DNA of 32,000 nt from Idiomarina loihiensis L2TR (GTDB lineage: Bacteria; Pseudomonadota; Gammaproteobacteria; Enterobacterales; Alteromonadaceae): the NCBI RefSeq assembly GCF_000008465.1, contig NC_006512.1, positions 570,001 through 602,000 on the forward strand, in the 5' to 3' direction. Numbering within the stretch: position 1 is the stretch's first letter; every line of letters begins with the position of its first letter. Both the position numbers and the translations under genes were made by a program. Below, one piece after another: positions 9,613 through 32,000 of this stretch. The notes under the pieces are model-generated. The model worked only from the letters and a program-made list of their open reading frames with translations. It made no database searches and was not told where the DNA came from.

Positions 9613-9624
9613 TTTGAGAAAAGT

Positions 9625-10767
9625 ATGTCACATCATTTAAGCGAGTTTATTCGTTCTCTTTATAAAACCAAAGATTTCATTCCGCTTCATGCCCCAACAT
9701 TTGGCGATCAGGAAAAATCCAATGTGCTAGACACCATTGAAACAACCTTTGTGTCGAGTGTTGGTAAGTACGTTGACGAATTTGAAAGAGAAATAGAGCG
9801 TTTTACTGAAAGCCCAAAAGCAGTAGCTACAGTTAATGGAACCGCGGCACTGCACACTGCACTTTATATGGCAGGTGTAAAACAGGGCGATTTGGTAATT
9901 ACTCAAGCATTAACTTTTGTTGCAACCTGTAATGCTATTCACCATATGGGTGCTGCCCCTGTATTTGTAGATGCATCACGTGAGACCTTAGGGCTTTGCC
10001 CCGTCGCGTTAGAGTCTTTCCTTGAGTATAACGCCAAACTAGATGGTGAACGGTGTATCCATAAAGAATCCAGGCAGGTAATAAGAGCTGCCGTTCCAAT
10101 GCATACCTTTGGGCATGCCGTTCATTTGGATGAGATACAGCGTATTTGCAAAAAGTGGCATATTACTCTAGTGGAAGACGCTGCAGAGAGCTTAGGGTCT
10201 TATTATAAGGGTAAACACACAGGCACAATTGGTGAGTTTGCCGCTTTAAGCTTCAACGGTAATAAAATTATTACAACTGGCGGTGGCGGTATGGTGCTTT
10301 GTGCTAGTGATGTTGACGGGCGGTGTACGAAACATATTACAACTACCGCTAAAGTACCTCATCCTTATGAGTTTTATCATGATGAGCCGGGCTTTAACTA
10401 TCGGATGCCGAATTTAAATGCCGCACTAGGTTGTGCGCAGATGCAAAGGTTGCCTTTATTTCTGGAGCAGAAACGTCAGCTGGCTAACGATTATCGAGCG
10501 TTCTTTAAAGGCTCGAACTATGAGTTTGTCGATGAGCCAAACCATAGTCACTCCAATTTTTGGCTTAACGCTGTACTTTGTGAAGATAAAGGTGCGCGCA
10601 ATGCTTTGCTCGAAGAACAAAACAGCGCAGGGATAATGTGCCGGCCTATATGGCAGCTTATGCATAAGTTACCGATGTTTGCAGAGTGTTTAAGAGGTGA
10701 TTTAGAAGTGTCCGAAGATATAGAAGCGCGTCTTGTAAATATCCCAAGTTCACCAATTTGTAGATAA
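9625..10767 (+). CDS. DegT/DnrJ/EryC1-family PLP aminotransferase (LegC/LgaB-like)
   Basis: 380 aa with FIPLHAPTFGDQE, VEDAAESLGS and ALSFNGNKIITTGGGGMV (Schiff-base Lys context). Confidence 0.8.
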   Translation: MSHHLSEFIRSLYKTKDFIPLHAPTFGDQEKSNVLDTIETTFVSSVGKYVDEFEREIERFTESPKAVATVNGTAALHTALYMAGVKQGDLVITQALTFVATCNAIHHMGAAPVFVDASRETLGLCPVALESFLEYNAKLDGERCIHKESRQVIRAAVPMHTFGHAVHLDEIQRICKKWHITLVEDAAESLGSYYKGKHTGTIGEFAALSFNGNKIITTGGGGMVLCASDVDGRCTKHITTTAKVPHPYEFYHDEPGFNYRMPNLNAALGCAQMQRLPLFLEQKRQLANDYRAFFKGSNYEFVDEPNHSHSNFWLNAVLCEDKGARNALLEEQNSAGIMCRPIWQLMHKLPMFAECLRGDLEVSEDIEARLVNIPSSPICR

Positions 10768-10777
10768 TGGAATTACA

Positions 10778-11941
10778 ATGAAAAAAGTCGCAGTATTCAC
10801 AGGAACTCGAGCTGAATATGGGCTTTTGTATTGGTTGCTTAAGGATATTCAGGATGCAGATGACTTAAAACTACAGTTGCTGGTTTCTGGTTCCCATTTA
10901 TCTCCAGAGTTTGGTCATACTGCAGATCAGATAGAAGCTGATGGTTTTGAAATTTCTGAAAAAATTGAAATGTTACTTTCATCAGATTCAGCGGTAGGCA
11001 GTGTAAAAAGTCTAGGACTCGGTATTATTGGGTATGCTGACGCCCTTGAGCGGCAACAGCCGGATATTTTGGTTGTTTTGGGCGACCGCTATGAAGCACT
11101 GGGAGTGACGCAAGCCGCTATGTTAATGCGTGTGCCTGTGCTGCACATTCACGGAGGCGAGATAACCGAAGGCGCTTATGATGATGCTATTCGGCATGCG
11201 ATAAGTAAATTAAGTTTGTTACACGCAACCTCCACTGAAAGCTATCGCAAACGAGTCATACAATTAGGTGAAGCCCCTGAAAGGGTTATCACTGTAGGAG
11301 CTATAGGACTCGATCATCTTAAGCGCTCTGAGTTCATGTCTCGTCAGGAACTATCCGAATCTTTAAAGTTTTCTTTAGATGGCGACTTTGCAATTGTGAC
11401 TTATCATCCAGTAACACTCGCAAATGAACCTGCAGAAGAGGCTTTCGAAAATATTACGGAGGTTCTGGACACTTATCCTTGGCTTAAAGTAATTATAACT
11501 TATCCAAACGCTGATGAGGGTGGGCGAAAGATTATCCCTCTGATAGAAGCTTATGCTGCAAAGCATAAAGAGAGGGTTATTGTCGTTCCTTCGTTAGGGC
11601 AGCGTCGTTATTTGAGCGCAGTTAAGCATGCAACAGTTGTTATCGGTAACTCATCCAGCGGTATCATCGAGGTTCCTTCTTTCAACGTGCCTACTGTAAA
11701 TATAGGGGCGCGCCAGTTTGGACGACTTGCTGCCGAAAGTGTAGTTAACTGTTCTCCAAGTGAAGTGGGGATCAGGAAAGCGTTAGAGCAAGCAATTGAT
11801 ATGTTTAAGTCTAATGCATTAAGCTCGGTGGTTAATCCTTACGGTAAAGGTAATGCTAGTGCAAAAATCCTTAATCTAATTCGTAAAGCAGACTTAACAA
11901 CCATAAAGACATTTCACGATTTAGATTCAGAACAAGGTTAA
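10778..11941 (+). CDS. neuC: Hydrolysing NDP-(di)N-acetylhexosamine 2-epimerase, NeuC family (LegG/LgaC-like)
   Basis: 387 aa with AVFTGTRAEYGLLYWLL, VVLGDRYEAL and HIHGGEITEGAYDD. Confidence 0.85.
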   Translation: MKKVAVFTGTRAEYGLLYWLLKDIQDADDLKLQLLVSGSHLSPEFGHTADQIEADGFEISEKIEMLLSSDSAVGSVKSLGLGIIGYADALERQQPDILVVLGDRYEALGVTQAAMLMRVPVLHIHGGEITEGAYDDAIRHAISKLSLLHATSTESYRKRVIQLGEAPERVITVGAIGLDHLKRSEFMSRQELSESLKFSLDGDFAIVTYHPVTLANEPAEEAFENITEVLDTYPWLKVIITYPNADEGGRKIIPLIEAYAAKHKERVIVVPSLGQRRYLSAVKHATVVIGNSSSGIIEVPSFNVPTVNIGARQFGRLAAESVVNCSPSEVGIRKALEQAIDMFKSNALSSVVNPYGKGNASAKILNLIRKADLTTIKTFHDLDSEQG

Positions 11942-11946
11942 TAAGA

Positions 11947-13020
11947 ATGACATTGATAATCGCTGAAGCGGGGGTTAATCATAATGGTGACGCAAAGCTG
12001 GCTCGTGATTTAGTAACCTCTGCTCATAAGGCTGGTGCGGATATTGTAAAATTTCAAACGTTTAAAGCGAAGAACATTGTTACAGAGAAGGCAACTCAAG
12101 CTAATTACCAGAAAAAGAACCTTGGTAGAGAAGAAAGCCAGTTAGCAATGCTACAACGCTTGGAGTTGAGTCACGAACTCCACTATGAACTGGTTGATTA
12201 CTGTAATGAGCTAGGTATTGAGTTTCTTTCAACCGCATTTGATGATGAGAGCCTGAACTTTTTAGTCAATGATTTGGGGTTGAAGCGTTTAAAATTACCG
12301 TCTGGCGAAATAACTAATGCCCCTTTAGTTTTAAAGCATGCTCAAACCGGGTGTGATTTAATTGTTTCGACAGGCATGGCAACAATGGCCGAGATCGAAT
12401 CGGTTTTAGGTGTTATTGCTTATGGTTATTTAAACCCGCATGCCAAACAAGCTACCCGAGCAGATTTTGAAACGGCATATGCATCAGAAAGTGGGCAGCA
12501 AATTCTGCGTGAAAAAGTGACGGTTTTGCATTGCACTACAGAATATCCTGCGCCTATGGAAGAAATTAATTTAAACGCGATGAACACCATCGGAACTACG
12601 TTCCGGTTACAAATTGGTTATTCCGATCACAGCCGAGGCATTACCATTCCGATTGCTGCCGTTGCCAAAGGCGCAACGATTATTGAAAAACATTTTACTT
12701 TGGACCGAAATCTGGAAGGACCGGATCATAAAGCGTCATTAGAGCCTGACGAACTTGCTGAAATGGTTACAGCTATTCGTGATGTGGAAAAAGCAATGGG
12801 CGACGGTGTTAAACGCCCGACGGTATCAGAAGTAAACAATAAAAATATTGCCCGTAAAAGTTTGGTTACAGTGAACCCTTTGAAAAAAGGCCAAGTGATA
12901 ACAGCCGATGATATTGCTGTGAAGCGCCCTGGTGGAGGTCGCTCGCCGTATGATTATTGGAAAATTATCGGGCAGCAATGTGACAGAGACTATCAGTCAG
13001 GGGATACGTTGATTGACTAA
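11947..13020 (+). CDS. neuB: Nonulosonic acid synthase, NeuB family (LegI/LgaD-like)
   Basis: 357 aa with IIAEAGVNHNGD and HCTTEYPAP, plus a C-terminal SAF-like domain IARKSLVTVNPLKKGQVITADDIAVKRPGGG. Confidence 0.9.
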   Translation: MTLIIAEAGVNHNGDAKLARDLVTSAHKAGADIVKFQTFKAKNIVTEKATQANYQKKNLGREESQLAMLQRLELSHELHYELVDYCNELGIEFLSTAFDDESLNFLVNDLGLKRLKLPSGEITNAPLVLKHAQTGCDLIVSTGMATMAEIESVLGVIAYGYLNPHAKQATRADFETAYASESGQQILREKVTVLHCTTEYPAPMEEINLNAMNTIGTTFRLQIGYSDHSRGITIPIAAVAKGATIIEKHFTLDRNLEGPDHKASLEPDELAEMVTAIRDVEKAMGDGVKRPTVSEVNNKNIARKSLVTVNPLKKGQVITADDIAVKRPGGGRSPYDYWKIIGQQCDRDYQSGDTLID

Positions 13021-13654
13021 GCGATATTTAGTTCTTGGCGGTGGTGGCCATGCTAGGGTTATCATTGATATTTTAGCCTCCTATAACATTCCAATAGAGG
13101 CAATTGTGGCTCCTGAGCTAGGACGAATGCAAGAGTTTAAGGGATTGAAGCATCTTCGAAAAGACGAGGAGGTAAGGCACTATAACGCCGACGAGGTAAG
13201 CTTGGTTAATGCGTTAGGGTCTTTGCCTGGCCAATATAACTTGCGAGAAGGGTTATTTAAACGCTTTAAAAAAGCCGGCTATCAATTTTTAACGGTCGTT
13301 TCGGAAGCGGCTATAATATCTCAGTATGCGGTGCTGGAAGAAGGCGTTCAAGTATTGCCCGGCGCGATTCTAAACGCTTGTAATGTTGGCGAGAACTCAA
13401 TAGTTAATACGGGAGCTATAGTCGAGCACGATGTAACTATTGGAAAGCATTGCCATATCGCTCCGGGAGCAACGATTTGTGGCAATGTAACACTTGGCGA
13501 TAATGTGCACATTGGAGCAGGAGCAACAGTCATCCAGGGGATTGATATTGGCGATAGCGCTGTCGTTGGAGCGGGCTCCATTGTTTCAAAAAATCTTTTT
13601 GCAAGAGACAGGCACTACCCAGCAAAATCATTTATTAAGAAGGGAAGTCAGTAA
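13013..13654 (+). CDS. NeuD/PglD-family sugar N-acetyltransferase (LegH/LgaE-like)
   Basis: 213 aa with a TTG start overlapping the neuB stop. It has the N-terminal LVLGGGGHARVIIDIL and hexapeptide repeats IGKHCHIAPGATICGNVTLGDNVHIGAGATVIQGIDIGDSAVVGAGSIV. Confidence 0.8.
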   Translation: MTKRYLVLGGGGHARVIIDILASYNIPIEAIVAPELGRMQEFKGLKHLRKDEEVRHYNADEVSLVNALGSLPGQYNLREGLFKRFKKAGYQFLTVVSEAAIISQYAVLEEGVQVLPGAILNACNVGENSIVNTGAIVEHDVTIGKHCHIAPGATICGNVTLGDNVHIGAGATVIQGIDIGDSAVVGAGSIVSKNLFARDRHYPAKSFIKKGSQ

Positions 13655-13655
13655 G

Positions 13656-14711
13656 ATGAGTTACGATTGGCGCAATGCAGTTGTCGGTCCGTCAGTTTCT
13701 GTCAAGGACACTTTGGAGAAGCTAGATAAAGAAGCATTACGTATCGTTTTAGTCTGTGATGACTCGATGAAGTTACTTGGTGTTGTAACAGACGGTGATA
13801 TTCGCCGAGCGTTACTAAAAGGGATGGGTTTGGAATGTGACGTTCATAAAATAATGAATCCATCACCAACGACAATAACGAACAATACGTCTAGAAAAGA
13901 CGCCGTTGCGTTAATGCAAAGCAAAAGCATACTGGCTACTCCTATTCTGGAAGAAGGCAAACTAATTGGTCTCGAAACCCTTCAACAAGCAAAAAGCCGT
14001 AAGCAGTATAGTAACCCTGTATTCATTATGGCAGGTGGTTTTGGAACACGCTTACGTCCCCTGACAGATGACACTCCTAAGCCAATGCTGAAAGTGGGTG
14101 AACGCCCAATACTAGAAACCCTGATACTTAATTTTATTAAAGCGGGCTTTTCTAAGTTTTATATTTCAACACATTACCTGCCGCACGTTATTCGAAACCA
14201 CTTTGGTGACGGCAGTAAATGGGGTGTAAACATTACTTATGTGCATGAGGAGACTCCTCTTGGCACAGGTGGAGCCCTTGGTCTGTTGCCGGACGATACA
14301 CCTGAACACCCTCTTATTATGGTGAACGGCGATGTACTGACCAACGTAGATTTTGAACGCGTATTAGACTTTCATGTGCAGAACGCTGCACTGGCAACTA
14401 TGTGTGTGCGTGAATACGACTATCAAATACCTTACGGAGTGATAGTTGGTGACGGTGAACGCATTATTAGTATGGAGGAAAAACCTATTCAACGGTTTTT
14501 CGTGAATGCTGGTATTTATGTGATTAATCCTGAAGTATTTAAAACAGTCGATAAAAATCGCCATATAGATATGCCAACGTTATTGCAGAAATACCTGGAC
14601 GCTAATAAAGAAGTTTTGATGTTTCCTATTCATGAATACTGGCTGGATATTGGTCGTATGGATGATTTTGAGCGCGCACAAGCTGATATTAAAGGCTTGT
14701 CTTTTGAATGA
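13656..14711 (+). CDS. CBS-domain sugar-1-phosphate nucleotidyltransferase (PtmE/LgaF-like)
   Basis: The true start is most likely ATG 13656 (MSYDWRN), 2 nt after the upstream stop and preceded by AAGGGAAG. The track's 13494 start lies inside the previous gene. It has a CBS pair (LRIVLVCDDSMKLLGVVTDGDIRRALL) followed by FIMAGGFGTRLRPLTDDTPKPML. Confidence 0.8.
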   Translation: MSYDWRNAVVGPSVSVKDTLEKLDKEALRIVLVCDDSMKLLGVVTDGDIRRALLKGMGLECDVHKIMNPSPTTITNNTSRKDAVALMQSKSILATPILEEGKLIGLETLQQAKSRKQYSNPVFIMAGGFGTRLRPLTDDTPKPMLKVGERPILETLILNFIKAGFSKFYISTHYLPHVIRNHFGDGSKWGVNITYVHEETPLGTGGALGLLPDDTPEHPLIMVNGDVLTNVDFERVLDFHVQNAALATMCVREYDYQIPYGVIVGDGERIISMEEKPIQRFFVNAGIYVINPEVFKTVDKNRHIDMPTLLQKYLDANKEVLMFPIHEYWLDIGRMDDFERAQADIKGLSFE

Positions 14712-14712
14712 C

Positions 14713-15414
14713 ATGAATAGTTCAGAAACTCTTATAATTATACCTGCAAGAGGCGGCAGTAAACGCCTTCCAAGAAAGAACGTTAAGCCGTTAGCGGGTA
14801 AGCCTCTTATTTGTTGGACAATAGAAGCCGCAATAAAAGCTAATTTAGATGCGAAAATAATCGTGACCAGTGACGATGATGAAATACTTGGACTGGCTGA
14901 TACATATAAAAGTAAAGGGGTTTACAAGCGCAAGCGGCCTGACAATTTAGCAACGGATACAGCAAGTACAGTCGACGCAATAATAGATGTTATTGAGTCT
15001 GAAAAAGAGTTGGGTAATAACCCACAAACAATTATTCTGCTGCAGCCTACTTCGCCGATTCGAAACGAAGATGATATTCGCAATGCGTTTCTTTTGTATA
15101 ACGATACAGAAGCTCATAATTACAGAAATACTGTGGTTAGCGTTTGTGAAGTGGAGCATCCAACTGCCTGGGTTGGGTGGGTTGATGAAAATATGTCATT
15201 TACGGGTACGGAACTGCTGAATAAACGCTCTCAAGACTACGAAAAAGAATACAGGCTTAATGGTGCTGTTTATGTAGCTTCTGTTGAGCACATTTTTAAA
15301 GAGAAATCGCTGTTCTCTCAAAAGTTAAAAGCATCGGTAATGCCGAGAACCCGCTCTATTGACATTGATGAAGAGGTTGACTTTAAAGTTTGTGAGGGAT
15401 TACTAAGTGGTTGA
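14713..15414 (+). CDS. CMP-nonulosonate synthetase / acylneuraminate cytidylyltransferase family (LegF/LgaG/NeuA-like)
   Basis: The start is taken at ATG 14713 (MNSSETL), 2 nt after the upstream stop. LIIIPARGGSKRLPRKNVKPLAGKPLICW and LLQPTSPIR are family motifs. Confidence 0.85.
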   Translation: MNSSETLIIIPARGGSKRLPRKNVKPLAGKPLICWTIEAAIKANLDAKIIVTSDDDEILGLADTYKSKGVYKRKRPDNLATDTASTVDAIIDVIESEKELGNNPQTIILLQPTSPIRNEDDIRNAFLLYNDTEAHNYRNTVVSVCEVEHPTAWVGWVDENMSFTGTELLNKRSQDYEKEYRLNGAVYVASVEHIFKEKSLFSQKLKASVMPRTRSIDIDEEVDFKVCEGLLSG

Positions 15415-16435
15415 TAATTTATTTGTCGTAGAGTCACCCTTACAAGCTTTAGTAGCTTTAGAGCTCAGTCTACGTTTTAAGGACGCTCGAAACGGCATTG
15501 TGTACCGTTTTGTAGAGGGGCGAGAGCAAAATAACGAGCAGATAGAGAATGTTATCAGTAAAGGGGAATGGTCGTTCAGAAAAAAAGTGCTGTTTGACAG
15601 CAGTAGCGGCCTATCTAGTCATAGAAGCATTGTAAGAGAATTAAATTACTTTAACAAAACTTTTCCAGAGAGTATTAAACAGTTATTTATTGGTGAGTTT
15701 AGAGCTCAATGGATGCACTTTATGAGGGTTGCAGTTGCGCCATCTCTAACTGTACTAATGGATGATGGTGCAGCAACCTTAATGGTTAAAAGGGAGTTTA
15801 TAGATAAAGGGATATATTATCCAACAGCACTTTGGGCGCATGGAAGTTTCATGAAAAGGCTTGTGAAGCGACATATGTATAGTCGTTTTTTACGAAATAA
15901 CGAGCTACAGTCCCATCTATATTTCGCCTCAGCTTTTATTAAAACCGAAGCTCTATACCCTATAGATTTTTCTGCGGTGAAAAAACTGTTTAAAAGCAGT
16001 GAAAAAGGCGCTAGAGAAAAAGCTGTATTTTTCTTTGGCTCTAAATATAGCGAGGTAGGAATAGTTTCGCGTGAGTATGAACTTGCCTTCCTTGAGCGAG
16101 TGAAGCGGTTCTACTCGTTGTATGACTGTGACTTAGTTTACTGCGCACATAGAGATGAAAGTGATGAAAAGTTAAATGTGCTTAGAAATACACTAAAATT
16201 TAAGGTTGTAATGCCAGAAACGCCGGCCGAGATATTCTTATTAGAGAATAACCAGAGAATACTTGAAGTGTCAGGTGCTTACACGAGTGTTTTGAATAAC
16301 GCGAAAGTGCTACTACCAGATGTTTTAGTTAGAGCTTTCCAATTGGCCCCAGAGGAAATAAGCGTTGAGCACAGAAAAAATATCGAGCTTGTCTATAAAC
16401 ACTTTAATCGCGAAGATATTAAGCTTGTTTTGTAA
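15407..16435 (+). CDS. Hypothetical protein, candidate nonulosonic-acid (sialyl-type) transferase
   Basis: 342 aa. The GTG start overlaps the cytidylyltransferase stop by 8 nt, implying translational coupling. The N-terminus NLFVVESPLQALVALEL resembles the first strand-helix of polysialyltransferase-like proteins. It contains VLMDDGAATL (D/E-D/E-G-like) and CAHRDESDEK (His motif, HR rather than HP). The CDS is likely; the function is inferred. Confidence 0.5.
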   Translation: MVDNLFVVESPLQALVALELSLRFKDARNGIVYRFVEGREQNNEQIENVISKGEWSFRKKVLFDSSSGLSSHRSIVRELNYFNKTFPESIKQLFIGEFRAQWMHFMRVAVAPSLTVLMDDGAATLMVKREFIDKGIYYPTALWAHGSFMKRLVKRHMYSRFLRNNELQSHLYFASAFIKTEALYPIDFSAVKKLFKSSEKGAREKAVFFFGSKYSEVGIVSREYELAFLERVKRFYSLYDCDLVYCAHRDESDEKLNVLRNTLKFKVVMPETPAEIFLLENNQRILEVSGAYTSVLNNAKVLLPDVLVRAFQLAPEEISVEHRKNIELVYKHFNREDIKLVL

Positions 16436-22445: not shown

Positions 22446-23366
22446 ATGAAGCGAAACCTAATTAAATTTGTAAATGACAAAGCAAAATATAACGATTTAT
22501 ACCGAAAGTCTTTGATGACTAACTTGAGTAACTCAGGAACGAAGGTCAGCTCTTTAGGGGTATTTGAGTCTGTAGGAAGTACGCTCTCGTTTTTGTGCCT
22601 TAACTTTAAGAATGAAAAAATAGTTTCTTCTAATTTAAAAACCAACCTATTTTCTTTACTGTTTTGCTTCAAGCCGCAGGTACTAATAATTAATGGTTTG
22701 GGTAGGTATAGAACGAGCCAAAGGTTTAGGCTTCTACTACGGGTGCTGTTGGATTATCGAAACTCCAGTGTCCAGGCTATATTCCAGAATTACGCGGATT
22801 ACCGCTTTTATAGACGCTTCTGCAATCATGCTAAGGTCTACTGGGTTCCTGGTTCTGGCGGGGTGTCACGAAAAATCGGGGCGAGCGAAAACTCCTTTGT
22901 CGCGATTCAGCGCGACAGTAAGTTGTCGTTAGTTGCTAAGTCTATTCAAGAGTGTGCGAGTTTGATTCAAGAAGTTAAAGCGGGTGACTCGTTATCGTTC
23001 ACTTTAGTTGGTTGCTCTATTAGAAATGAACTAGCAAAAGCTCAACTTCCGAACTTTGAAAATGTTGGCCGGTACGCTCAAGATGACATCTTTATCGATG
23101 GAAGAAGCTTTATACAGCCGGAAGGCTATGGTGAAGGTATCCCTCATACGCTGGTTGATGCAATGTGTAGTGGCATGAAAGTTTTTATAAAGAAACAATG
23201 TTTCCTAAGGTACGGGTTGCATAAGTTACATTGTAAGTTTTCTTGTATCGGTAATGGATGGGGTGAGTTAGGAGCGACTGCTAATGCTAGTAAGGAAGTC
23301 TCTCTGGAATCAGTAAACGAATCTTACATAAGTATAATATCTAGCATGAATAAGCTGAAAAAATGA
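22446..23366 (+). CDS. Putative GT-B glycosyltransferase (short, divergent)
   Basis: 306 aa. VYWVPGSGGV and PEGYGEGIPHTLVDAMCSGMKVF resemble the GT4/GT1 C-terminal nucleotide-sugar binding region. The gene is tightly packed, starting 2 nt after wzy and with its stop overlapping the next gene. Confidence 0.5.
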   Translation: MKRNLIKFVNDKAKYNDLYRKSLMTNLSNSGTKVSSLGVFESVGSTLSFLCLNFKNEKIVSSNLKTNLFSLLFCFKPQVLIINGLGRYRTSQRFRLLLRVLLDYRNSSVQAIFQNYADYRFYRRFCNHAKVYWVPGSGGVSRKIGASENSFVAIQRDSKLSLVAKSIQECASLIQEVKAGDSLSFTLVGCSIRNELAKAQLPNFENVGRYAQDDIFIDGRSFIQPEGYGEGIPHTLVDAMCSGMKVFIKKQCFLRYGLHKLHCKFSCIGNGWGELGATANASKEVSLESVNESYISIISSMNKLKK

Positions 23367-26028: not shown

Positions 26029-28800
26029 TTGCTGACTATGAATAAAAATGCTTTAAACGCCACGCAATTTTCTGTTTCTACGGTTCTTTTTGCTGCTGTT
26101 TTTGCTTTGGTAACAAGCATGTTTTCAGTAAATGCGGCGGCGCAAGCCATGCCTAGCCAGGAACAGCTTGAGCAATTACAAAGCTTACCGCGTGCACAGC
26201 AAGAGGCGCTGGCGCGTCAGTATGGTATTGACCCTTCAGCAATTGACCAGTTTAATGCTGCCCAGCGCGACGGCGACTCCAGTGCCAAGCAGGAAGTGGA
26301 TGTTGTTAGCGAGCGTTCAGGTAATGGAGACACCGGGCAAACCAGTTCGTCTTTTATGTCGGAAAATTTACAAAAAGAATTTAACCGGGGGCGTTCAGAG
26401 CTGAAGCCTTTTGGTTACGACATATTCTCGGGTGAACCCAATACCTTTGCTCCGGTGGCGCATGCGCCTATTCCTGCAAACTACATAATTAGCGTGGGCG
26501 ATGTTATTCACGTTGAAATGTTTGGTAAGCAGGACGAGAGCTTTAAGCTAACCGTAAACCGTGACGGCAGTATTGTATTACCAGACGTAGGTGAAATGAA
26601 AGTTGCGGGCATGACCTACTCCTTAATGCAGGAAATGATCCACCACGAAGTTCAGGAGCGCTTAATTGGGTATAAGGCGGCAGTAACTATGGGCGAGCTC
26701 CGCTCTATTCAGGTGTTTATTGTGGGCGAAGCCTACAAACCGGGAGCCTACACGGTAAGCTCGCTGGCGACTATAAGCCAGGCCTTGTATGTGGCCGGTG
26801 GCGTTTCAGATATTGCCTCGCTGCGTTCAGTACGTTTAATGCGCGGCGGTAAAGTTGCGTCTGAATTCGACTTATACGACTTACTGCTACAAGGTGACGC
26901 TTCTGCCGACAAAACTCTGAAAAGTGGCGATGTTATTTTTATTCCGGCACGTGGCGACATGGTAGCGGTAAAAGGTGAAGTAAAACGCCCGGCGCTTTAT
27001 GAATTAAAAGGCGATGAAACGCTAGAAGACGCTCTGGAATTTGCCGGTGGCGCAAAAGACTCCGCCTATTTGCAGTCGGCTGAGCTGCGCAGAATAGTAA
27101 AAGGCAAACGCTTAGTCAGTACAGTTGATTTAACTGCAGAAAAAGACTTAAACCGTGAATTAAGCGGTGGTGATGCCTTAACCGTGCGTGAGGTGTCGCA
27201 AGAGTTGGATAATAGTTTGATGGTGGTAGGGGCTGTCACCCGCCCGGGCTATTATGAATGGCAAGACGGTATGCGTATTAATGACATATTGCGCGACGTT
27301 CGCCACGACTTGTTAGAACAGGCCGACTTAGGCTACGGCCTGGTAGTGCGTGAGCAAGGCCCGCGCCGCAACGTAAAAGTTTTACAGTTTGATGTGGCCG
27401 ACGCCATTAATGGTGTAGAAGGTGAGAACCTGCGCTTAAATGAGCGTGATCAGCTGGTAGTTTTCAGCCGTTTTGAAACCAAGGCCGAAGAGCGTGACAG
27501 CCTGTCGCGTTATACTTTGTCAGAACAGGAACGCGAATACCAGCAGCGTCAGCGTCAGTTAGATGCTTATCGCGATGCCTACTTAAATGACGTAGTTAAT
27601 ACAAAACTGGCTGGCTCATCAGAAAGCCCGGACGCCGAGAACGAAGACAAAATTGTGCCTTTGCGCGAGCTGTTTACCGAAAAGCAGGAAGAAGAGCCTA
27701 CAGTGAAGAAAGAGCTGGCTATGTATTCCCGCCAGAACTTACTTGAGCCTATTATGCAACGCATACAGCGTCAGCGCACGGCAACTGGGACCGCGCCTTT
27801 TGTGTCGGTAGCCGGTGAAGTTATGCACCCGGGTATTTACCCTTTAGTTGAAAATGCCACGGCGGAGAAATTGCTGGCCGCAGCCGGTGGCCTGAAAAAT
27901 GGTGCTTACACCGAACAAGCAGAAATTACCCGCTGGGCTATTGGTAAAGATACCGCCAATACTGACTATTTAAAAATAGACTTAGCCGAGGTTATTAATG
28001 GTGAAGTAGACGTACCTTTGCAGGGGCGTGACCGTTTAAATGTACTGAGTATTCCTGAATGGCAAAATACCTATGAAGTGACCTTGCGTGGCGAAGTTCG
28101 CTTTCCGGGGACTTATTCTATTAAACGCGGCGAAACACTGAGCGACGTTATTAAGCGCGCAGGCGGCTTTACCGACCATGCCTTTTTGGAAGGGGTGGTA
28201 TTTACCCGCGAAGAGCTGCAGGAGCAGGAACAAAAGCGTAAAGAAATGCTGGCACAGGAGCTGCAGCGTGAAATTGCCAGTAATATGATTACCGGCACCG
28301 GCGACGCTAACCAGTCTTACGACCAAATGCGCACTTTGCTGGCCGACTTAATGTCGACACCGGCGGTTGGTCGTTTAATTATGGATTTACCCAAAGTGTT
28401 GTCAATGAACGGCAGCCGCGACGTACAGCTAAAAGACGGGGACACACTGCATGTGCCTTCGCGTAGCGACTCTATTAGCATTATGGGCGAAGTGCAAATG
28501 GCCACCTCTTACCGGTTTGATTCTGAGCTTACGGTTGATGACTACATTAGCCGTAGCGGCGGAACAAAAGAAAAGGCCGATACTGACCGTATATATATAG
28601 TAAAAGCCAACGGCGCAATAGAACCTTATAAAGGCGGTAGCAGCTGGTTTGGTTTTGGCGGCGGTACCGACTTAGGCCCGGGTGACGCTATTGTGGTACC
28701 GCTGGATACTACCTATACTGAGAGCTTAGAGTTGTGGTCAGAGATTACTAATATTATTTACAACTCGGCTGTAGCCGTAGCAGCTATCAGTAGTATTTAA
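26029..28800 (+). CDS. Large outer-membrane polysaccharide export (OPX) protein, Wza/OtnA-like with multiple SLBB domains
   Basis: 923 aa; the start is TTG 26029 or ATG 26038. It has a Sec signal (..SMFSVNAAAQA) with no lipobox Cys and a Poly_export-like region (KPFGYDIF..ISVGDVIHVEMFG..RDGSIVLPDVGEMKVAGMT). Six G-E/A-V-x-x-P-G-x-Y beta-grasp repeats follow (IVGEAYKPGAY, VKGEVKRPALY, VVGAVTRPGYY, VAGEVMHPGIY, LRGEVRFPGTY, IMGEVQMATSY). The C-terminus has a hydrophobic helix, ITNIIYNSAVAVAAISSI. Confidence 0.85.
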   Translation: MLTMNKNALNATQFSVSTVLFAAVFALVTSMFSVNAAAQAMPSQEQLEQLQSLPRAQQEALARQYGIDPSAIDQFNAAQRDGDSSAKQEVDVVSERSGNGDTGQTSSSFMSENLQKEFNRGRSELKPFGYDIFSGEPNTFAPVAHAPIPANYIISVGDVIHVEMFGKQDESFKLTVNRDGSIVLPDVGEMKVAGMTYSLMQEMIHHEVQERLIGYKAAVTMGELRSIQVFIVGEAYKPGAYTVSSLATISQALYVAGGVSDIASLRSVRLMRGGKVASEFDLYDLLLQGDASADKTLKSGDVIFIPARGDMVAVKGEVKRPALYELKGDETLEDALEFAGGAKDSAYLQSAELRRIVKGKRLVSTVDLTAEKDLNRELSGGDALTVREVSQELDNSLMVVGAVTRPGYYEWQDGMRINDILRDVRHDLLEQADLGYGLVVREQGPRRNVKVLQFDVADAINGVEGENLRLNERDQLVVFSRFETKAEERDSLSRYTLSEQEREYQQRQRQLDAYRDAYLNDVVNTKLAGSSESPDAENEDKIVPLRELFTEKQEEEPTVKKELAMYSRQNLLEPIMQRIQRQRTATGTAPFVSVAGEVMHPGIYPLVENATAEKLLAAAGGLKNGAYTEQAEITRWAIGKDTANTDYLKIDLAEVINGEVDVPLQGRDRLNVLSIPEWQNTYEVTLRGEVRFPGTYSIKRGETLSDVIKRAGGFTDHAFLEGVVFTREELQEQEQKRKEMLAQELQREIASNMITGTGDANQSYDQMRTLLADLMSTPAVGRLIMDLPKVLSMNGSRDVQLKDGDTLHVPSRSDSISIMGEVQMATSYRFDSELTVDDYISRSGGTKEKADTDRIYIVKANGAIEPYKGGSSWFGFGGGTDLGPGDAIVVPLDTTYTESLELWSEITNIIYNSAVAVAAISSI

Positions 28801-28889: not shown

Positions 28890-28964
28890 GGAAGTTGCTG
28901 TTAATTAAAATAGTTTTAGTAACAGCGATACATGTATCTATATCTCTGGAGTGAGGTTAACATT

Positions 28965-29261
28965 ATGAAAACATTAGCATTATCAGTAGTTGCTGCGTTA
29001 GGCTTAGCTGCCGCGCCAGCAATGGCACAAGACGGCGCTGCAGGCGCAAACGCTTCTGAAAGCGGCTACGGCGGCTTATCAACTGAAGCTTGGGTATTTG
29101 CAGGTGTTGCAGCAGCAGCAACTGTAGCAGTTGTTTCTGACAGCTCTTCAAACTCAGCTATCGACCCAACTGACCCGACTGATCCGACAGACCCGGATCC
29201 AATCGTTACAGTTACTGGTACAGGCACTAACACCTATACTATTACTATTCCAGGTCAGTAA
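28965..29261 (+). CDS. Small secreted Ala/Gly/Ser/Thr-rich protein, YjbE/GfcA-like
   Basis: 98 aa from ATG 28965, with RBS TGAGG 8 nt upstream; the track's 28932 start adds 11 unlikely residues. It has the signal peptide MKTLALSVVAALGLAAAPAMA/QDG, a second hydrophobic stretch AWVFAGVAAAATVAVV, DPTDPTDPTDPDP, then TVTGTGTNTYTITI. Size, composition and position before a YjbF-like lipoprotein match yjbE/gfcA. Confidence 0.65.
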   Translation: MKTLALSVVAALGLAAAPAMAQDGAAGANASESGYGGLSTEAWVFAGVAAAATVAVVSDSSSNSAIDPTDPTDPTDPDPIVTVTGTGTNTYTITIPGQ

Positions 29262-29397: not shown

Positions 29398-30108
29398 ATG
29401 TCTCGTTTGTTGCTGATACCCATTGTTTTATTGCTGTTAAGCGCTTGCACGGCGGTAACAGATGAAGTGCGCGCCACTATAGAATACGCTTTTGAAGGCG
29501 GCGAAGACGCCGAGCTTTCCCAGGAAAAAATAGACTCTTTTCCCTACACCTCACTTTACGCGCAATGGTCCGACAACCCCCGAAGTTTAATTGTACTGGG
29601 TTACGTGAATAAACCCGATGACTGGCATTTTATTACAGCGGAAAAAGAGACTCTGGTATTACGCAATGGCCGGGTTATACGGACTCAGGCTCTTAATAAG
29701 AATCTGCTGGCGGTATCTAATTTAAAAGACGACCCGTTACGCTGCATAGTAACCAGCCAGGCAAACTGCCCAACCCACTGGCGACGGCAGTACGACATTG
29801 AAATGGCTAATAAAGTGGTCAGCCGCGAAGCTTCCTCTGAGTTTTCTGTGCAGGACAAACAAGTATTAAACTTACCCATTGGCCCGGTTAATACCACCTA
29901 CGTGGTTGAAAAAGGGGAGTTTACTCTTAGCGGTCAGGAGTTTGTGAATGAGTTTTGGCTGGAAGACGACGGGCACGTTGTAAAAAGTCGGCAGACGTTA
30001 TTTCCGGGCGGCGATAAATTAACCCTGACTCAGGTTACCTGGATAGGCCGCGATTATTCTGCAAGCCGCAATGCGCGCGAAGAACAACAAGGGCAAGAAG
30101 CGCAATGA
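29398..30108 (+). CDS. Lipoprotein, YjbF/GfcB-like
   Basis: The start is taken at ATG 29398, with RBS GAGGAAG 4 nt upstream; the track gives TTG 29386. MSRLLLIPIVLLLLSAC has a lipobox L-S-A-C. The protein is about 236 aa and sits between the YjbE-like and YjbG-like genes. Confidence 0.7.
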   Translation: MSRLLLIPIVLLLLSACTAVTDEVRATIEYAFEGGEDAELSQEKIDSFPYTSLYAQWSDNPRSLIVLGYVNKPDDWHFITAEKETLVLRNGRVIRTQALNKNLLAVSNLKDDPLRCIVTSQANCPTHWRRQYDIEMANKVVSREASSEFSVQDKQVLNLPIGPVNTTYVVEKGEFTLSGQEFVNEFWLEDDGHVVKSRQTLFPGGDKLTLTQVTWIGRDYSASRNAREEQQGQEAQ

Positions 30109-32000
30109 GAAAACCAATGAAACTGATGCTCCGGAACACGCTACTTATTAGTGCTTTGTTTTCACTGAACGCCGTTGCTCAACAAGCTAAGTATGAATTT
30201 GAAGGCCCGGTGCGGTTGCAGCAAGTACTGAATGACGCTGAAAGCGAAGGCTTGTTAGCCGACGCATACTGGCCTTTAGTGAGGCTGGTTAAAACCGACG
30301 ATAAAGCCGAAATAGAACAACAACGTAACCAGATACTGGCGCAACTGACCGAGCTGGAACAGTATTGGCAGTCGCGCAGAGAAACCGAAAAAGCGCAAAG
30401 CGCCGCATTACTGAAAAGCCAGGTAAAAAGCTGGCAACTGGGTAAACAATTATGGGGGCAAATTAGCATTGAAAATGCCCGTACGGAATTAGCCAGCAAC
30501 CCCTTACTGCCTGCGGGAGAATATAAGCTTTATGTACCTGAACGTCCGGACTCGGTGCACGTATATGGTGTTGTCAGTACCCCTGGTGATTACCGCTATG
30601 CCAGTGGTAAAACCGTAGCCGACTGGCTGAACAGTATAGATGACAGCGAAGGGCTGGGGGCGGCCTATAATAAAAGCCAGGCCGTGCGTATTAGGCAAAA
30701 CCAGCAACAAACAGCGGACTGGGCTTATTATAAACAAAGTGACGCCGAGCTTCTGCCCGGCGACATTCTCTGGTTAGGCTTTGAACCTAACCAGTTGCCG
30801 CCTAAATTTGAAAGTTTAAATGCGGATATTCGTGACTTACTAATGCATTTTGTTGCTAATGAGTCTGAGCGTAATAGCTTAAACCTGCCAGTTCATGAAG
30901 TTGAAAATAACCATGCCACTTCCAGTTGGCATTGGTCACGCAGAGACTTGTCGCCCAGTTATGGTGACTATGGCTCTGTCGGCTTGCTGCAAACGCCTAC
31001 CGCCCGTATGGCCGAAGAAGGGGCTTTGGCTATTACCTACAGCGACATGGAAGAATATCGCCGTTATACGGTAAACCTACAGTTGCTGCCCTGGTTGGAA
31101 ACTACCGCCTTTTATACCGAGTTTCCTAACCGTAAGTACAGTAATGTCCCTGACTTCAGTGGTGACAACGTTTTTGCGGACAAAGGTTTTGATATAAAAG
31201 CCCGTTTATGGGAAGAGAGTTATTGGGTACCGGAAGTGAGTGTGGGCTTTCGTGACTTTGTTGGTACCGGGCTTTTTGATGCCGAGTATATTGTAGCCAA
31301 TAAACGCTTTGGCCCTTTGGATGTGAGCTTAGGTGTAGGTTTTGGTCGCCTGGGTACACGTGATGATTTCACTAACCCCTTTTGCGAGCTGTCTGACGAG
31401 TACTGTGATCGTGAAACAGGTTATGGATCTGGCGGTGGTCAACTGGAGTATGATCGCTGGTTTACCGGTCCTGCTGCCTTATTTGGTGGGGTGGAGTACC
31501 ATACGCCCTGGGAGCCGCTGAGTTTAAAAGTTGAGTACGAAGGCAATGACTATTCTGACGAGCGCGCCGGAGTGCCTATTAAAGTCGACAGTCGCTGGAA
31601 CTTTGGTGCCAATTATCAGGTAACCGACTATTTTGACGTGCAACTGAGTTACGAGCGTGGCAACACCTTTATGTTTAACTTTAGCTTGCGCACTAACTTC
31701 GGCACGCTGAACCAAATAAAGGTAACGCCGGACAAAACCGTACCCACACCGGAAAAACGTAAAGAGTCGTTAGACGATGTGAACTGGTCAGCCATGAACC
31801 TGGCTATGCGTGAGCAGGGGGCTTTTAGTGCGGCGCGTTTTGCCGCAGAAGACGACGAAGTGACCCTATTTGCTTACCACTTGCGGTATCGCGACAGCAG
31901 CGAGGCTTATGACCGGGCTGCACGTATTATGGCGGCCGAGTTACCAGACAGTGTGAAAACCTACAACCTGGTGGATATGACGCTGTTTGATCCGAACGTG
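30105..32000 (+). CDS. Fusion ORF: GfcC/YjbG-like periplasmic domain joined to a YjbH/GfcD-like outer-membrane protein (partial, runs off the 3' end of the window)
   Basis: This ORF is not in the supplied track because it has no stop in the window. My manual translation of the frame starting at ATG 30105 (ATGA overlap with the upstream stop) found no stop through 32000, i.e. 632 codons. Residues 1-250 carry the signal MKLMLRNTLLISALFSLNAVA, GEYKLYVPERPDSVHVYGVVSTPGDY and LLPGDILWLGFEPNQLPPKFESLNADIRDLL (GfcC-like). From about residue 281 come SPSYGDYGSVGLLQTPTARMAEEGAL, LLPWLETT, DKGFDIKARLWEE, GTGLFDAEYIVANK, LFGGVEYHTPWEPLSLKVEYEGN and LSYERGNTFMFNFSLRTNF (YjbH-like). Confidence 0.8.
   Translation, partial: MRKPMKLMLRNTLLISALFSLNAVAQQAKYEFEGPVRLQQVLNDAESEGLLADAYWPLVRLVKTDDKAEIEQQRNQILAQLTELEQYWQSRRETEKAQSAALLKSQVKSWQLGKQLWGQISIENARTELASNPLLPAGEYKLYVPERPDSVHVYGVVSTPGDYRYASGKTVADWLNSIDDSEGLGAAYNKSQAVRIRQNQQQTADWAYYKQSDAELLPGDILWLGFEPNQLPPKFESLNADIRDLLMHFVANESERNSLNLPVHEVENNHATSSWHWSRRDLSPSYGDYGSVGLLQTPTARMAEEGALAITYSDMEEYRRYTVNLQLLPWLETTAFYTEFPNRKYSNVPDFSGDNVFADKGFDIKARLWEESYWVPEVSVGFRDFVGTGLFDAEYIVANKRFGPLDVSLGVGFGRLGTRDDFTNPFCELSDEYCDRETGYGSGGGQLEYDRWFTGPAALFGGVEYHTPWEPLSLKVEYEGNDYSDERAGVPIKVDSRWNFGANYQVTDYFDVQLSYERGNTFMFNFSLRTNFGTLNQIKVTPDKTVPTPEKRKESLDDVNWSAMNLAMREQGAFSAARFAAEDDEVTLFAYHLRYRDSSEAYDRAARIMAAELPDSVKTYNLVDMTLFDPNV

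What the first reader, a model, noticed from the sequence alone, without database searches (positions are those of the whole stretch)
30105..32000. GfcC/YjbG-like and YjbH/GfcD-like proteins encoded as one uninterrupted ORF, absent from the supplied ORF track
The frame opening at ATG 30105 stays open to the end of the window (I checked 632 codons by hand). The track shows only minus-strand shadow ORFs here. The first ~250 aa are colinear with E. coli GfcC/YjbG as I remember it, including the C-terminal ..LWLGF....LP.K...LN..I...L segment where GfcC normally ends. In place of a stop there is a roughly 25-35 aa linker (ESERNSLNLPVHEVENNHATSSWHWSRRDL), and then the sequence enters the conserved mature N-terminus of YjbH (..GSVGLLQTPTARMAEEG..). 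The second part has no signal peptide or lipobox of its own, which argues for a genuine evolutionary fusion rather than a missed stop. In E. coli these are two separate genes of poorly understood function. A natural fusion is Rosetta-stone evidence that the periplasmic beta-grasp protein and the large outer-membrane protein work as one physical unit.
Basis: partly seen in the sequence, partly recalled or inferred. Interest (0 to 1): 0.7.

Follow-up and report, generated by a model that had tools for sequence, protein, structure and literature searches.

The report
Known fused GfcC–YjbH capsule-export gene
The window ends in a real, conserved gene that joins a periplasmic capsule protein (GfcC/YjbG) to its outer-membrane double-barrel partner (YjbH/GfcD), but this exact Idiomarina loihiensis protein was already deposited as a fusion, and the fusion argument is already published and tested.

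Summary
From ATG 30105 the frame stays open for 632 codons to the window end. Pfam places Caps_syn_GfcC_N (aa 26-146), Caps_syn_GfcC_C (160-247) and YjbH (285-626) in that one frame. The 37-aa spacer has no hydrophobic stretch and no Cys.

It is not a missed stop. The ORF is 100% identical to Idiomarina loihiensis AAV81409.1/Q5QWW2 and to two 959-aa metagenome proteins. Intact fused orthologues run through Idiomarina and Aliidiomarina down to about 40% identity.

It is not new. The I. loihiensis protein carries the source name [quoted passage not shown]. The GfcC–GfcD Rosetta-stone inference was published from Burkholderia OtnG (2011, reviewed 2012). A GfcB–GfcC–GfcD complex was shown biochemically in 2021.

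What I add is modest:
- The fusion arose at least three times: Idiomarina/Aliidiomarina, Pseudidiomarina, Paraburkholderia.
- The linker is as long as the lost YjbH signal-peptide region and carries a motif seen only in fused proteins.
- YjbF–GfcC fusions also exist.

The gene was missing from the ORF track because ORFs that run off the window end are not listed.

Verdict: genuine feature, correct interpretation, already known; low interest.

The parts
30105..32000 (+). Fused yjbG-yjbH (gfcC-gfcD / wbfC-wbfB) gene: the first 632 of 959 codons, cut by the window end. NCBI starts the identical I. loihiensis protein at the in-frame ATG 30117 (MKLML..., 955 aa).
   Evidence: Open frame. Pfam GfcC_N + GfcC_C + YjbH in one frame. 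100% identical to 959-aa P0287/P0293 and to 955-aa P0284 = AAV81409.1. Fragment P0076 is 100% identical over aa 463-632 and continues 327 aa to a stop.
30105..30179 (+). Predicted Sec (type I) signal peptide MRKPMKLMLRNTLLISALFSLNAVA|QQ. It is the only export signal of the whole fusion.
   Evidence: Read from the sequence: basic n-region, hydrophobic core LLISALFSL, A-V-A before the likely cleavage site, no Cys. AF2 pLDDT is below 50 for residues 1-25 of the 92% homologue. No signal-peptide predictor was run.
30180..30845 (+). GfcC/YjbG-like periplasmic module (N and C domains, ending in the short C-terminal helix ..DIRDLLMHFV).
   Evidence: Pfam PF20616 aa 26-146 and PF06251 aa 160-247. 3P42 matched at E = 1.8e-14. 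The AF2 model of homologue P0001 superposes on 3P42_B with TM 0.81 and rmsd 2.8 A over 219 columns. Stand-alone GfcC/YjbG proteins stop 0-1 residue after the equivalent ..LLTHRIPD.
30846..30956 (+). Linker (aa 248-284). It is hydrophilic and has no Cys. The first half is variable; the second half is conserved (HWSRRDLSPSY). It occupies the place of the signal peptide of stand-alone YjbH.
   Evidence: Max 12-residue hydropathy 0.11, against 1.67-2.68 in split YjbH. The motif H-x(1,2)-R-x(0,1)-D is present in 40 of 65 fused and 0 of 42 split proteins. pLDDT is 81-91 over residues 250-290 of the model.
30957..32000 (+). YjbH/GfcD module: the 12-stranded N-terminal barrel and most of the periplasmic middle domain. 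The 13-stranded C-terminal barrel lies beyond the window.
   Evidence: Pfam PF06082 aa 285-626 = profile 1-338/658, 445.5 bits. The AF2 model of P0001 has 12 strands at 308-532, an alpha/beta domain at 562-646 and 13 strands at 689-930. This matches the published GfcD model (PMC11494523).
29398..30108 (+). yjbF/gfcB-like lipoprotein gene. Its stop overlaps the start of the fusion gene (ATGA).
   Evidence: Pfam YjbF, 201 bits. The N-terminus MSRLLLIPIVLLLLSAC has a lipobox-like LSAC.
28962..29261 (+). Small secreted Ala/Gly/Ser/Thr-rich protein with a PTDPTDPTDPDP stretch, in the position of yjbE/gfcA.
   Evidence: Translation. No Pfam or NCBIfam match. The assignment rests on position and composition only.
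26029..28800 (+). Large outer-membrane polysaccharide export (OPX, Wza-like) protein with about ten SLBB-type repeats. No Wza_C domain was detected.
   Evidence: Pfam Poly_export, SLBB (6 stretches) and SLBB_2 (4 stretches). A weak match to my GfcC HMM lies near the C-terminus.

Best explanation
This is the 5' two-thirds of a genuine single gene of Idiomarina loihiensis that encodes a 955-959-aa precursor.

Domain order:
- one N-terminal Sec signal peptide;
- a periplasmic GfcC/YjbG (WbfC) module;
- a roughly 37-aa hydrophilic linker;
- a YjbH/GfcD (WbfB) outer-membrane protein made of a 12-stranded barrel, a periplasmic middle domain and a 13-stranded barrel.

Shown here: the domains, the absence of an internal export signal, conservation of the fused state, and the operon context (OPX, yjbE-like, yjbF, fusion) at the end of a Wzy-type polysaccharide locus.

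Inferred mechanism: the precursor is exported once through Sec. The YjbH part is inserted into the outer membrane, whose barrel N-terminus faces the periplasm, so the GfcC module hangs covalently tethered beneath it. The fusion replaces the weak non-covalent GfcC-GfcD contact measured in E. coli. The YjbF lipoprotein, still a separate and translationally coupled gene, would bind the tethered GfcC module. The assembly would then act with the OPX protein in surface polysaccharide export or anchoring.

Inferred origin: loss of the stop at the overlapping yjbG/yjbH junction, after which the former YjbH signal-peptide codons lost their hydrophobicity and became the linker.
For: - Open frame and domains.
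- Structure: the AF2 model of the 92% identical full-length homologue has mean pLDDT 84.2 and pTM 0.81. It contains a GfcC fold (TM 0.81 to 3P42) and 12- plus 13-stranded barrels.
- Not an error: 100% identity to proteins held under several independent accessions (AAV81409.1, AGM35436.1, WP_011233826.1) and to ENA and JGI metagenome proteins.
- Conservation: fused single ORFs in Idiomarina rhizosphaerae, aminovorans and abyssalis, Aliidiomarina sedimenti, indica and halalkaliphila, and others. All 65 fused homologues keep both modules.
- Monophyly: the Idiomarina/Aliidiomarina fused clade has 100% bootstrap support.
- No internal signal peptide in fused proteins, while every split YjbH has one.
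- Linker length: 42-43 aa from the GfcC end to the PTARM motif, equal to the 42 aa from Met1 to PTARM in split E. coli YjbH. Stand-alone GfcC stops exactly where the linker begins.
- Published biochemistry: GfcB pulls down GfcC and GfcD. KD to GfcD is 9.1 uM for GfcBC and 257 uM for GfcC alone (PMC8592465).
- Published double-barrel model with a lateral gate (PMC11494523).
Against: - No protein-level data exist for this organism, so cleavage in the linker after export cannot be excluded.
- Neither coordinates nor PAE of the model were available to me, so the docking of GfcC against the barrel is not demonstrated. High pTM and linker pLDDT are only suggestive.
- The last 327 residues lie outside the window and are taken from identical or near-identical database proteins.
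- The function of the whole yjbEFGH/gfcABCD module is still unsettled in the literature.
Confidence: 0.85

Rival explanations
1. Sequencing or assembly artefact: two ordinary genes, yjbG and yjbH, are joined by a missed stop or a frameshift in this assembly.
For: In split genomes the two genes overlap or abut, so a single base error could join them. One such artefact does exist: the Buttiauxella MAG L013 appears fused only because ambiguous bases (XXX) cover the junction, and it keeps the YjbH signal peptide.
Against: The junction is 100% identical in independent I. loihiensis records and two metagenome proteins. The fused state is conserved in 12 species-representative Idiomarinaceae genomes (10 in the Idiomarina/Aliidiomarina clade, 2 Pseudidiomarina) and 65 protein clusters, down to about 40% identity. 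The linker has lost the signal peptide, which a recent error would retain.
Confidence: 0.01
2. One gene, two proteins: the precursor is exported as a fusion and then cleaved in the variable first half of the linker. This would release free GfcC and YjbH in strict 1:1 stoichiometry.
For: The first half of the linker is poorly conserved, as expected for a spacer. Stoichiometric coupling is already suggested for the overlapping gfcB/C/D genes (PMC8592465).
Against: No recognisable cleavage motif is present. The second half of the linker is conserved and predicted with pLDDT near 90. Three independent lineages keep the fusion with linkers of different sequence.
Confidence: 0.1
3. The YjbH part is also made on its own from an internal start codon, so the fusion is only one of two products.
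For: In-frame Met codons exist at aa 247 and aa 303.
Against: Any product starting there lacks a signal peptide. It could not reach the outer membrane, so such a product would be non-functional. Split orthologues always carry a signal peptide.
Confidence: 0.03

Closest known systems
Idiomarina loihiensis protein AAV81409.1 / WP_011233826.1 / UniProt Q5QWW2
   Same: 100% identical over all 628 comparable residues. It is the same gene. Its source name is 'Fusion of WbfC-and WbfB-like uncharacterized domains involved in polysaccharide synthesis'.
   Different: Nothing, except that NCBI starts it 4 codons downstream, at MKLML. NCBI's current name, 'YjbH domain-containing protein', hides the fusion.
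Burkholderia OtnG and Paraburkholderia plasmid homologues (GfcC-GfcD fusion proteins of about 940-995 aa)
   Same: Same architecture: GfcC module, linker without a signal peptide, then YjbH. The genes are preceded by a small protein and a YjbF lipoprotein. OtnG is the published basis of the GfcC/GfcD Rosetta-stone inference (PMC4017328, PMC8592465).
   Different: The origin is independent. The YjbH parts are only about 36% identical to the Idiomarina clade, whereas that clade is 44-46% identical to split gammaproteobacterial YjbH. Bootstrap support for joint monophyly is 0 of 100. In Paraburkholderia the fusion is followed by wza-wzb-wzc; here the OPX gene lies upstream.
E. coli GfcC + GfcD (group 4 capsule) and YjbG + YjbH; Vibrio WbfC + WbfB
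   Same: Homologous modules in the same gene order (B/F, C/G, D/H) with overlapping reading frames. The proteins form a GfcB-GfcC-GfcD complex at the outer membrane (PMC8592465). GfcD/YjbH are modelled as double barrels (PMC8346858, PMC11494523).
   Different: There they are two polypeptides, each with its own signal peptide. Here they are one polypeptide with one signal peptide.
KpsD-type (class 2) OPX proteins
   Same: This is another case in which a GfcC-like module is covalently fused to an export component (10.1101/2022.02.11.480155).
   Different: There the GfcC module sits at the C-terminus of a Poly_export-SLBB protein, not at the N-terminus of a beta-barrel protein.

Membership tests
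GfcC / YjbG / WbfC (Pfam PF20616 + PF06251) | Both Pfam domains score above their gathering cut-offs | tested here: met
   52.8 bits against a cut-off of 22.1, and 38.2 bits against a cut-off of 20.
GfcC / YjbG / WbfC (Pfam PF20616 + PF06251) | Fold of the solved E. coli GfcC structure (3P42) | tested here: met
   phmmer E = 1.8e-14. The AF2 model of the 92% identical homologue gives a Foldseek TM of 0.81 and rmsd 2.8 A to 3P42_B.
GfcC / YjbG / WbfC (Pfam PF20616 + PF06251) | Stand-alone periplasmic protein of about 250 aa that ends after the C-terminal helix | tested here: not met
   There is no stop after the ..LLMHFV helix, and the frame continues into YjbH. Of the 148 newly returned representative GfcC relatives, 123 are stand-alone.
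YjbH / GfcD / WbfB (Pfam PF06082) | Pfam YjbH match from profile position 1 | tested here: met
   445.5 bits, profile positions 1-338 of 658, cut off by the window end. The rest is present in the identical database proteins.
YjbH / GfcD / WbfB (Pfam PF06082) | 12-stranded barrel, periplasmic domain and 13-stranded barrel | tested here: met
   DSSP on the AF2 model of P0001 gives 12 strands at 308-532, an alpha/beta domain at 562-646 and 13 strands at 689-930. This agrees with PMC11494523. It is a model, not an experiment.
YjbH / GfcD / WbfB (Pfam PF06082) | Own N-terminal signal peptide | tested here: not met
   Linker hydropathy maximum is 0.11, against 1.67-2.68 in split homologues.
YjbH / GfcD / WbfB (Pfam PF06082) | Outer-membrane localisation | not testable with these tools
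   This needs cell fractionation. It was shown only for E. coli GfcD (PMC8592465).
GfcC-YjbH fusion proteins (OtnG-type architecture) | Both modules in one ORF, with no internal export signal, conserved among orthologues | tested here: met
GfcC-YjbH fusion proteins (OtnG-type architecture) | Common descent with the Burkholderiaceae fusion | tested here: not met
   0 of 100 bootstraps for joint monophyly. All gammaproteobacterial YjbH, fused and split, group apart from Paraburkholderia. The architecture is shared; the fusion event is not.
yjbEFGH / gfcABCD operon | A YjbF/GfcB lipoprotein gene immediately upstream with overlapping frames | tested here: met
   Pfam YjbF at 201 bits, lipobox-like LSAC, ATGA overlap.
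yjbEFGH / gfcABCD operon | A small Ser/Thr-rich YjbE/GfcA protein gene upstream | tested here: inconclusive
   ORF 28962-29261 has a signal peptide and a Thr/Pro/Asp/Gly-rich tail but matches no family.

The most novel reading that the evidence does not exclude
The fusion arose independently at least three times. In at least two of those lineages (Idiomarina/Aliidiomarina and Paraburkholderia) the former signal-peptide region now carries a similar H-x-x-R-D-L motif that split YjbH lacks. On this reading the linker is not a passive tether. It is a convergently evolved, structured clasp that marks the physiological GfcC-YjbH interface. If so, these natural single-chain proteins would be good material for solving the still unsolved GfcC:GfcD complex.
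Probability: 0.25. Interest if true: 0.35.

Novelty: already known. Interest (0 to 1): 0.15.

Why it matters
A natural fusion is evidence that two proteins work as one unit. For GfcC/YjbG and GfcD/YjbH that argument is valid, but it was made in 2011 from Burkholderia OtnG, and direct binding data followed in 2021. The Idiomarina gene was itself labelled a fusion in its source record.

The residual value is practical:
- Current NCBI naming ('YjbH domain-containing protein') hides the fusion.
- The fusion recurs in several lineages, which strengthens the inference.
- Stable single-chain versions could help structural work on a complex whose barrel component has no solved structure.

Tried and rejected
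- NCBIfam gave no hit for the fusion, YjbF or the small ORF.
- The original GfcC structure paper (PubMed 21449614) and the I. loihiensis genome paper (tried as PMC539801) are not held. The OtnG claim is therefore cited through PMC4017328 and PMC8592465, and I checked it on Paraburkholderia plasmid homologues instead.
- The tblastn coverage in the genome scan at first suggested fusions in many Enterobacterales. ORF-level HMM analysis showed these are adjacent split genes joined by the tool.
- The Buttiauxella MAG L013 looked like a fourth fusion. I rejected it because ambiguous bases cover the junction and the signal peptide is retained.
- The Niveispirillum plasmid hit H18 is an OPX gene followed by a separate YjbH, not a fusion.
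- The representative search with the GfcC part did not reach Burkholderia OtnG within the 150 proteins listed.
- Coordinates and PAE of the AF2 model are not exposed, so I could not measure domain contacts.
- I did not use the second structure job, because it would not have returned that information either.
Full report
**1. The observation**

Translation from ATG 30105 gives 632 sense codons to the last base of the window. The ATG overlaps the stop of the preceding ORF as ATGA.

Pfam places three families in this one frame, all above their curated cut-offs:
- Caps_syn_GfcC_N, aa 26-146.
- Caps_syn_GfcC_C, aa 160-247.
- YjbH, aa 285-626, which matches profile positions 1-338 of 658.

The first part matches the solved E. 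coli GfcC structure 3P42 (E = 1.8e-14, aa 53-249). The ORF list shows only short ORFs here, because that tool omits ORFs that run off an end of the source.

**2. Is it a true single gene?**

Yes.

- A homologue search returned 65 clusters of full-length fused proteins (942-1075 aa) carrying GfcC and YjbH modules. They range from 92% down to about 36-40% identity and are named mostly from Idiomarina and Aliidiomarina. Stand-alone YjbH proteins of about 700 aa follow, from Alteromonas, Vibrio and Enterobacterales.
- Cluster look-up showed the window ORF is 100% identical over all 632 residues to two 959-aa metagenome proteins. It is 100% identical over 628 residues to Idiomarina loihiensis AAV81409.1 / AGM35436.1 / WP_011233826.1 / Q5QWW2.
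- A fragment, P0076, is identical over the last 170 residues and continues 327 residues to a stop. The complete protein is therefore 959 aa, or 955 aa from NCBI's start at ATG 30117.
- I scanned one genome per species and located my own GfcC and YjbH HMMs on stop-to-stop ORFs. Both modules lie in one ORF in 12 Idiomarinaceae genomes. Ten are in the Idiomarina/Aliidiomarina clade: I. rhizosphaerae, I. aminovorans, I. abyssalis, three unnamed Idiomarina assemblies, a Pseudomonadota MAG (BLK54) that groups with I. abyssalis, and Aliidiomarina sedimenti, A. indica and A. halalkaliphila. Two are Pseudidiomarina. The modules lie in two ORFs in all the Alteromonadaceae and Enterobacterales genomes I counted.
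- One apparent enterobacterial fusion (Buttiauxella MAG L013) is an artefact. Ambiguous bases cover the junction, and the YjbH signal peptide is still present.

**3. The junction**

- Every split YjbH has a hydrophobic signal peptide within the 62 residues upstream of the conserved PTARM motif (maximum 12-residue Kyte-Doolittle hydropathy 1.67-2.68).
- Fused linkers score -0.47 to 0.62. The one exception is an Ala/Gly-rich insert in P0041, at 1.32. The window's linker scores 0.11 and has no Cys.
- Stand-alone GfcC/YjbG proteins stop 0-1 residue after ..LLTHRIPD, which aligns with the window's ..LLMHFVANES.
- The distance from that point to PTARM is 42-43 aa in Idiomarina. Met1 to PTARM in split E. 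coli YjbH is 42 aa.

I infer that the fusion arose by loss of the stop at the overlapping gene junction, and that the former signal-peptide codons then evolved into a hydrophilic linker. An internally initiated YjbH would have no export signal, so a separate functional YjbH product is unlikely.

**4. Structure**

AlphaFold2 on the 92% identical full-length homologue P0001, with a 65-sequence alignment, gave mean pLDDT 84.2 and pTM 0.81.

- The N-terminal module superposes on GfcC 3P42 (TM 0.81, rmsd 2.8 A).
- The remainder has 12 strands (308-532), an alpha/beta periplasmic domain (562-646) and 13 strands (689-930). This is the architecture published for GfcD (PMC11494523; PMC8346858).
- The linker region is predicted with pLDDT 81-91. 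That suggests a structured connection, but I could not inspect coordinates or PAE.
- No solved YjbH/GfcD structure exists in the PDB copy searched.

**5. Context**

The window is a Wzy-type surface-polysaccharide locus. It holds:
- dTDP-sugar genes;
- a nonulosonic-acid set: a Polysacc_synt_2-family protein (8422-9612), an aminotransferase, a UDP-GlcNAc 2-epimerase, NeuB, an acetyltransferase and a cytidylyltransferase;
- glycosyltransferases;
- an EpsG-family polymerase with 9 hydrophobic segments;
- an initiating sugar transferase.

These are followed by a 923-aa OPX protein with about ten SLBB repeats and no detected Wza_C domain. Next comes a small secreted Thr/Pro/Asp-rich protein in the yjbE position, then a YjbF lipoprotein (LSAC lipobox), and then the fusion. 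In the close relative L002 the fusion is followed by a Polysacc_synt_2-family (CapD/WbpM-type) gene and pgi, which ends the locus.

**6. Mechanism**

Shown: one signal peptide, two modules, and a retained, translationally coupled yjbF.

From the literature: E. coli GfcB pulls down GfcC and GfcD. GfcBC binds GfcD with a KD of 9.1 uM, and GfcC alone binds at 257 uM. GfcD is an outer-membrane beta-barrel protein and not a lipoprotein (PMC8592465). GfcD's C-terminal barrel has a lateral gate proposed to release lipid-anchored polysaccharide (PMC11494523).

Inferred: the precursor crosses the inner membrane once, and the barrels insert into the outer membrane. Barrel N-termini are periplasmic, so the GfcC module is held under the barrels at high local concentration. 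There it can bind YjbF and cooperate with the OPX protein. Cleavage after export cannot be excluded; I put it at about 0.1.

**7. Comparison with what is known**

- The exact protein is named in its source record as [quoted passage not shown]. WbfB, WbfC and WbfD are the Vibrio gene names found in the same order next to wza in a V. cholerae capsule locus (PMC1847822). Their equivalence to YjbH, YjbG and YjbF is from my own knowledge.
- The Rosetta-stone inference for GfcC and GfcD was drawn from Burkholderia OtnG by the authors of the GfcC structure. It is listed in a survey of fusion-based predictions (PMC4017328) and repeated together with binding data in PMC8592465.
- I confirmed the betaproteobacterial architecture directly. 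Two Paraburkholderia plasmids encode 953- and 939-aa proteins with GfcC_C and YjbH domains, preceded by yjbF and followed by wza-wzb-wzc.

**8. What is added here**

Neighbour-joining trees (100 bootstraps) of the YjbH part show the following:
- The Idiomarina/Aliidiomarina fusions are monophyletic (100%).
- The Pseudidiomarina fusions form a second group (87-90%), nested among split Idiomarinaceae YjbH (100%).
- The Paraburkholderia fusions lie outside all gammaproteobacterial sequences.
- No bootstrap replicate joins any two fused groups.

The GfcC-part tree agrees for the Pseudidiomarina group. That group clusters with split P. planktonica at 97%, and joint monophyly of the two gammaproteobacterial fused groups gets 0%. 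At least three independent fusions is the most parsimonious reading. The alternative is repeated fission with re-acquisition of a signal peptide.

Further points:
- A motif H-x(1,2)-R-x(0,1)-D occurs in 40 of 65 fused linkers and 0 of 42 split proteins. It recurs as FHARDLP in Paraburkholderia. This is unexplained.
- Among the 150 best 50%-identity representatives of GfcC relatives, 123 are stand-alone and 3 are GfcC-YjbH fusions.
- Two representatives are YjbF-GfcC fusions. They mirror the high-affinity GfcB-GfcC heterodimer.

**9. Verdict**

The feature is already known, both for this exact gene and as a published fusion inference that has since been tested experimentally. Interest is low (0.15). 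The only mildly novel thread is the recurrent fusion with a possibly convergent linker motif.

Noticed in passing
window 26029-28800 (+): A 923-aa OPX (Wza-like) protein with Poly_export plus about ten SLBB/SLBB_2 repeats. No Wza_C outer-membrane helix was detected, and there is a weak GfcC-like match near its C-terminus. It sits directly upstream of the yjbE-like/yjbF/fusion genes. This fits the published idea that OPX proteins without Wza_C pair with a beta-barrel partner.
   Followed up: partly
window 28962-29261 (+): A small secreted protein with an Ala/Gly-rich middle and a PTDPTDPTDPDP...TGTGTNTYT tail. It has no family match and lies in the position of yjbE/gfcA.
   Followed up: partly
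window 8422-16435 (+): A complete-looking nonulosonic-acid (legionaminic or pseudaminic acid-type) gene set: a Polysacc_synt_2-family protein, DegT aminotransferase, UDP-GlcNAc 2-epimerase, NeuB, hexapeptide transferase, CBS-nucleotidyltransferase and cytidylyltransferase. It is followed by a protein with a weak polysialyltransferase-family match.
   Followed up: no
window 6768-7904 (+) and 22446-23366 (+): Two ORFs of 378 and 306 aa inside the polysaccharide locus with no Pfam match and no hydrophobic segments. They may be unclassified glycosyltransferases or modifying enzymes.
   Followed up: partly
proteins P0205 (586 aa) and P0236 (494 aa): Metagenome proteins that fuse YjbF/GfcB to GfcC (Pfam YjbF + GfcC_N + GfcC_C). 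So both neighbouring pairs of the B-C-D trio occur as natural fusions.
   Followed up: partly
L013:5803-8721 (Buttiauxella MAG): An apparent GfcC-YjbH fusion in an enterobacterial MAG is caused by ambiguous bases at the gene junction. The internal signal peptide is intact and sister genomes are split.
   Followed up: yes
L081:3266-6127 and L083:3332-6151 (Paraburkholderia plasmids): The annotated starts of these fused proteins give N-termini without a signal peptide (VTISTPVRLGDW...). The true start is probably further upstream. Their linker carries FHARDLP, which resembles the Idiomarina HWSRRDL motif despite the independent origin.
   Followed up: partly
L024, L026, L027, L066, L067 (Idiomarina baltica, I. 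tyrosinivorans, I. aquatica, Pseudidiomarina planktonica, Idiomarina sp. MAG): Some Idiomarinaceae carry a split yjbG/yjbH pair that forms a lineage separate from the fused Idiomarina clade. I did not determine whether these genomes lack the fused gene or carry both.
   Followed up: no
P0001 residues C428 and C435 (window ORF aa 427 and 434, nt 31383-31406): Two cysteines in ..NPFCELSDEYCDR.. are invariant across all 65 fused homologues. They lie in a loop of the N-terminal barrel between strands 406-415 and 458-467 and probably form a disulfide.
   Followed up: no
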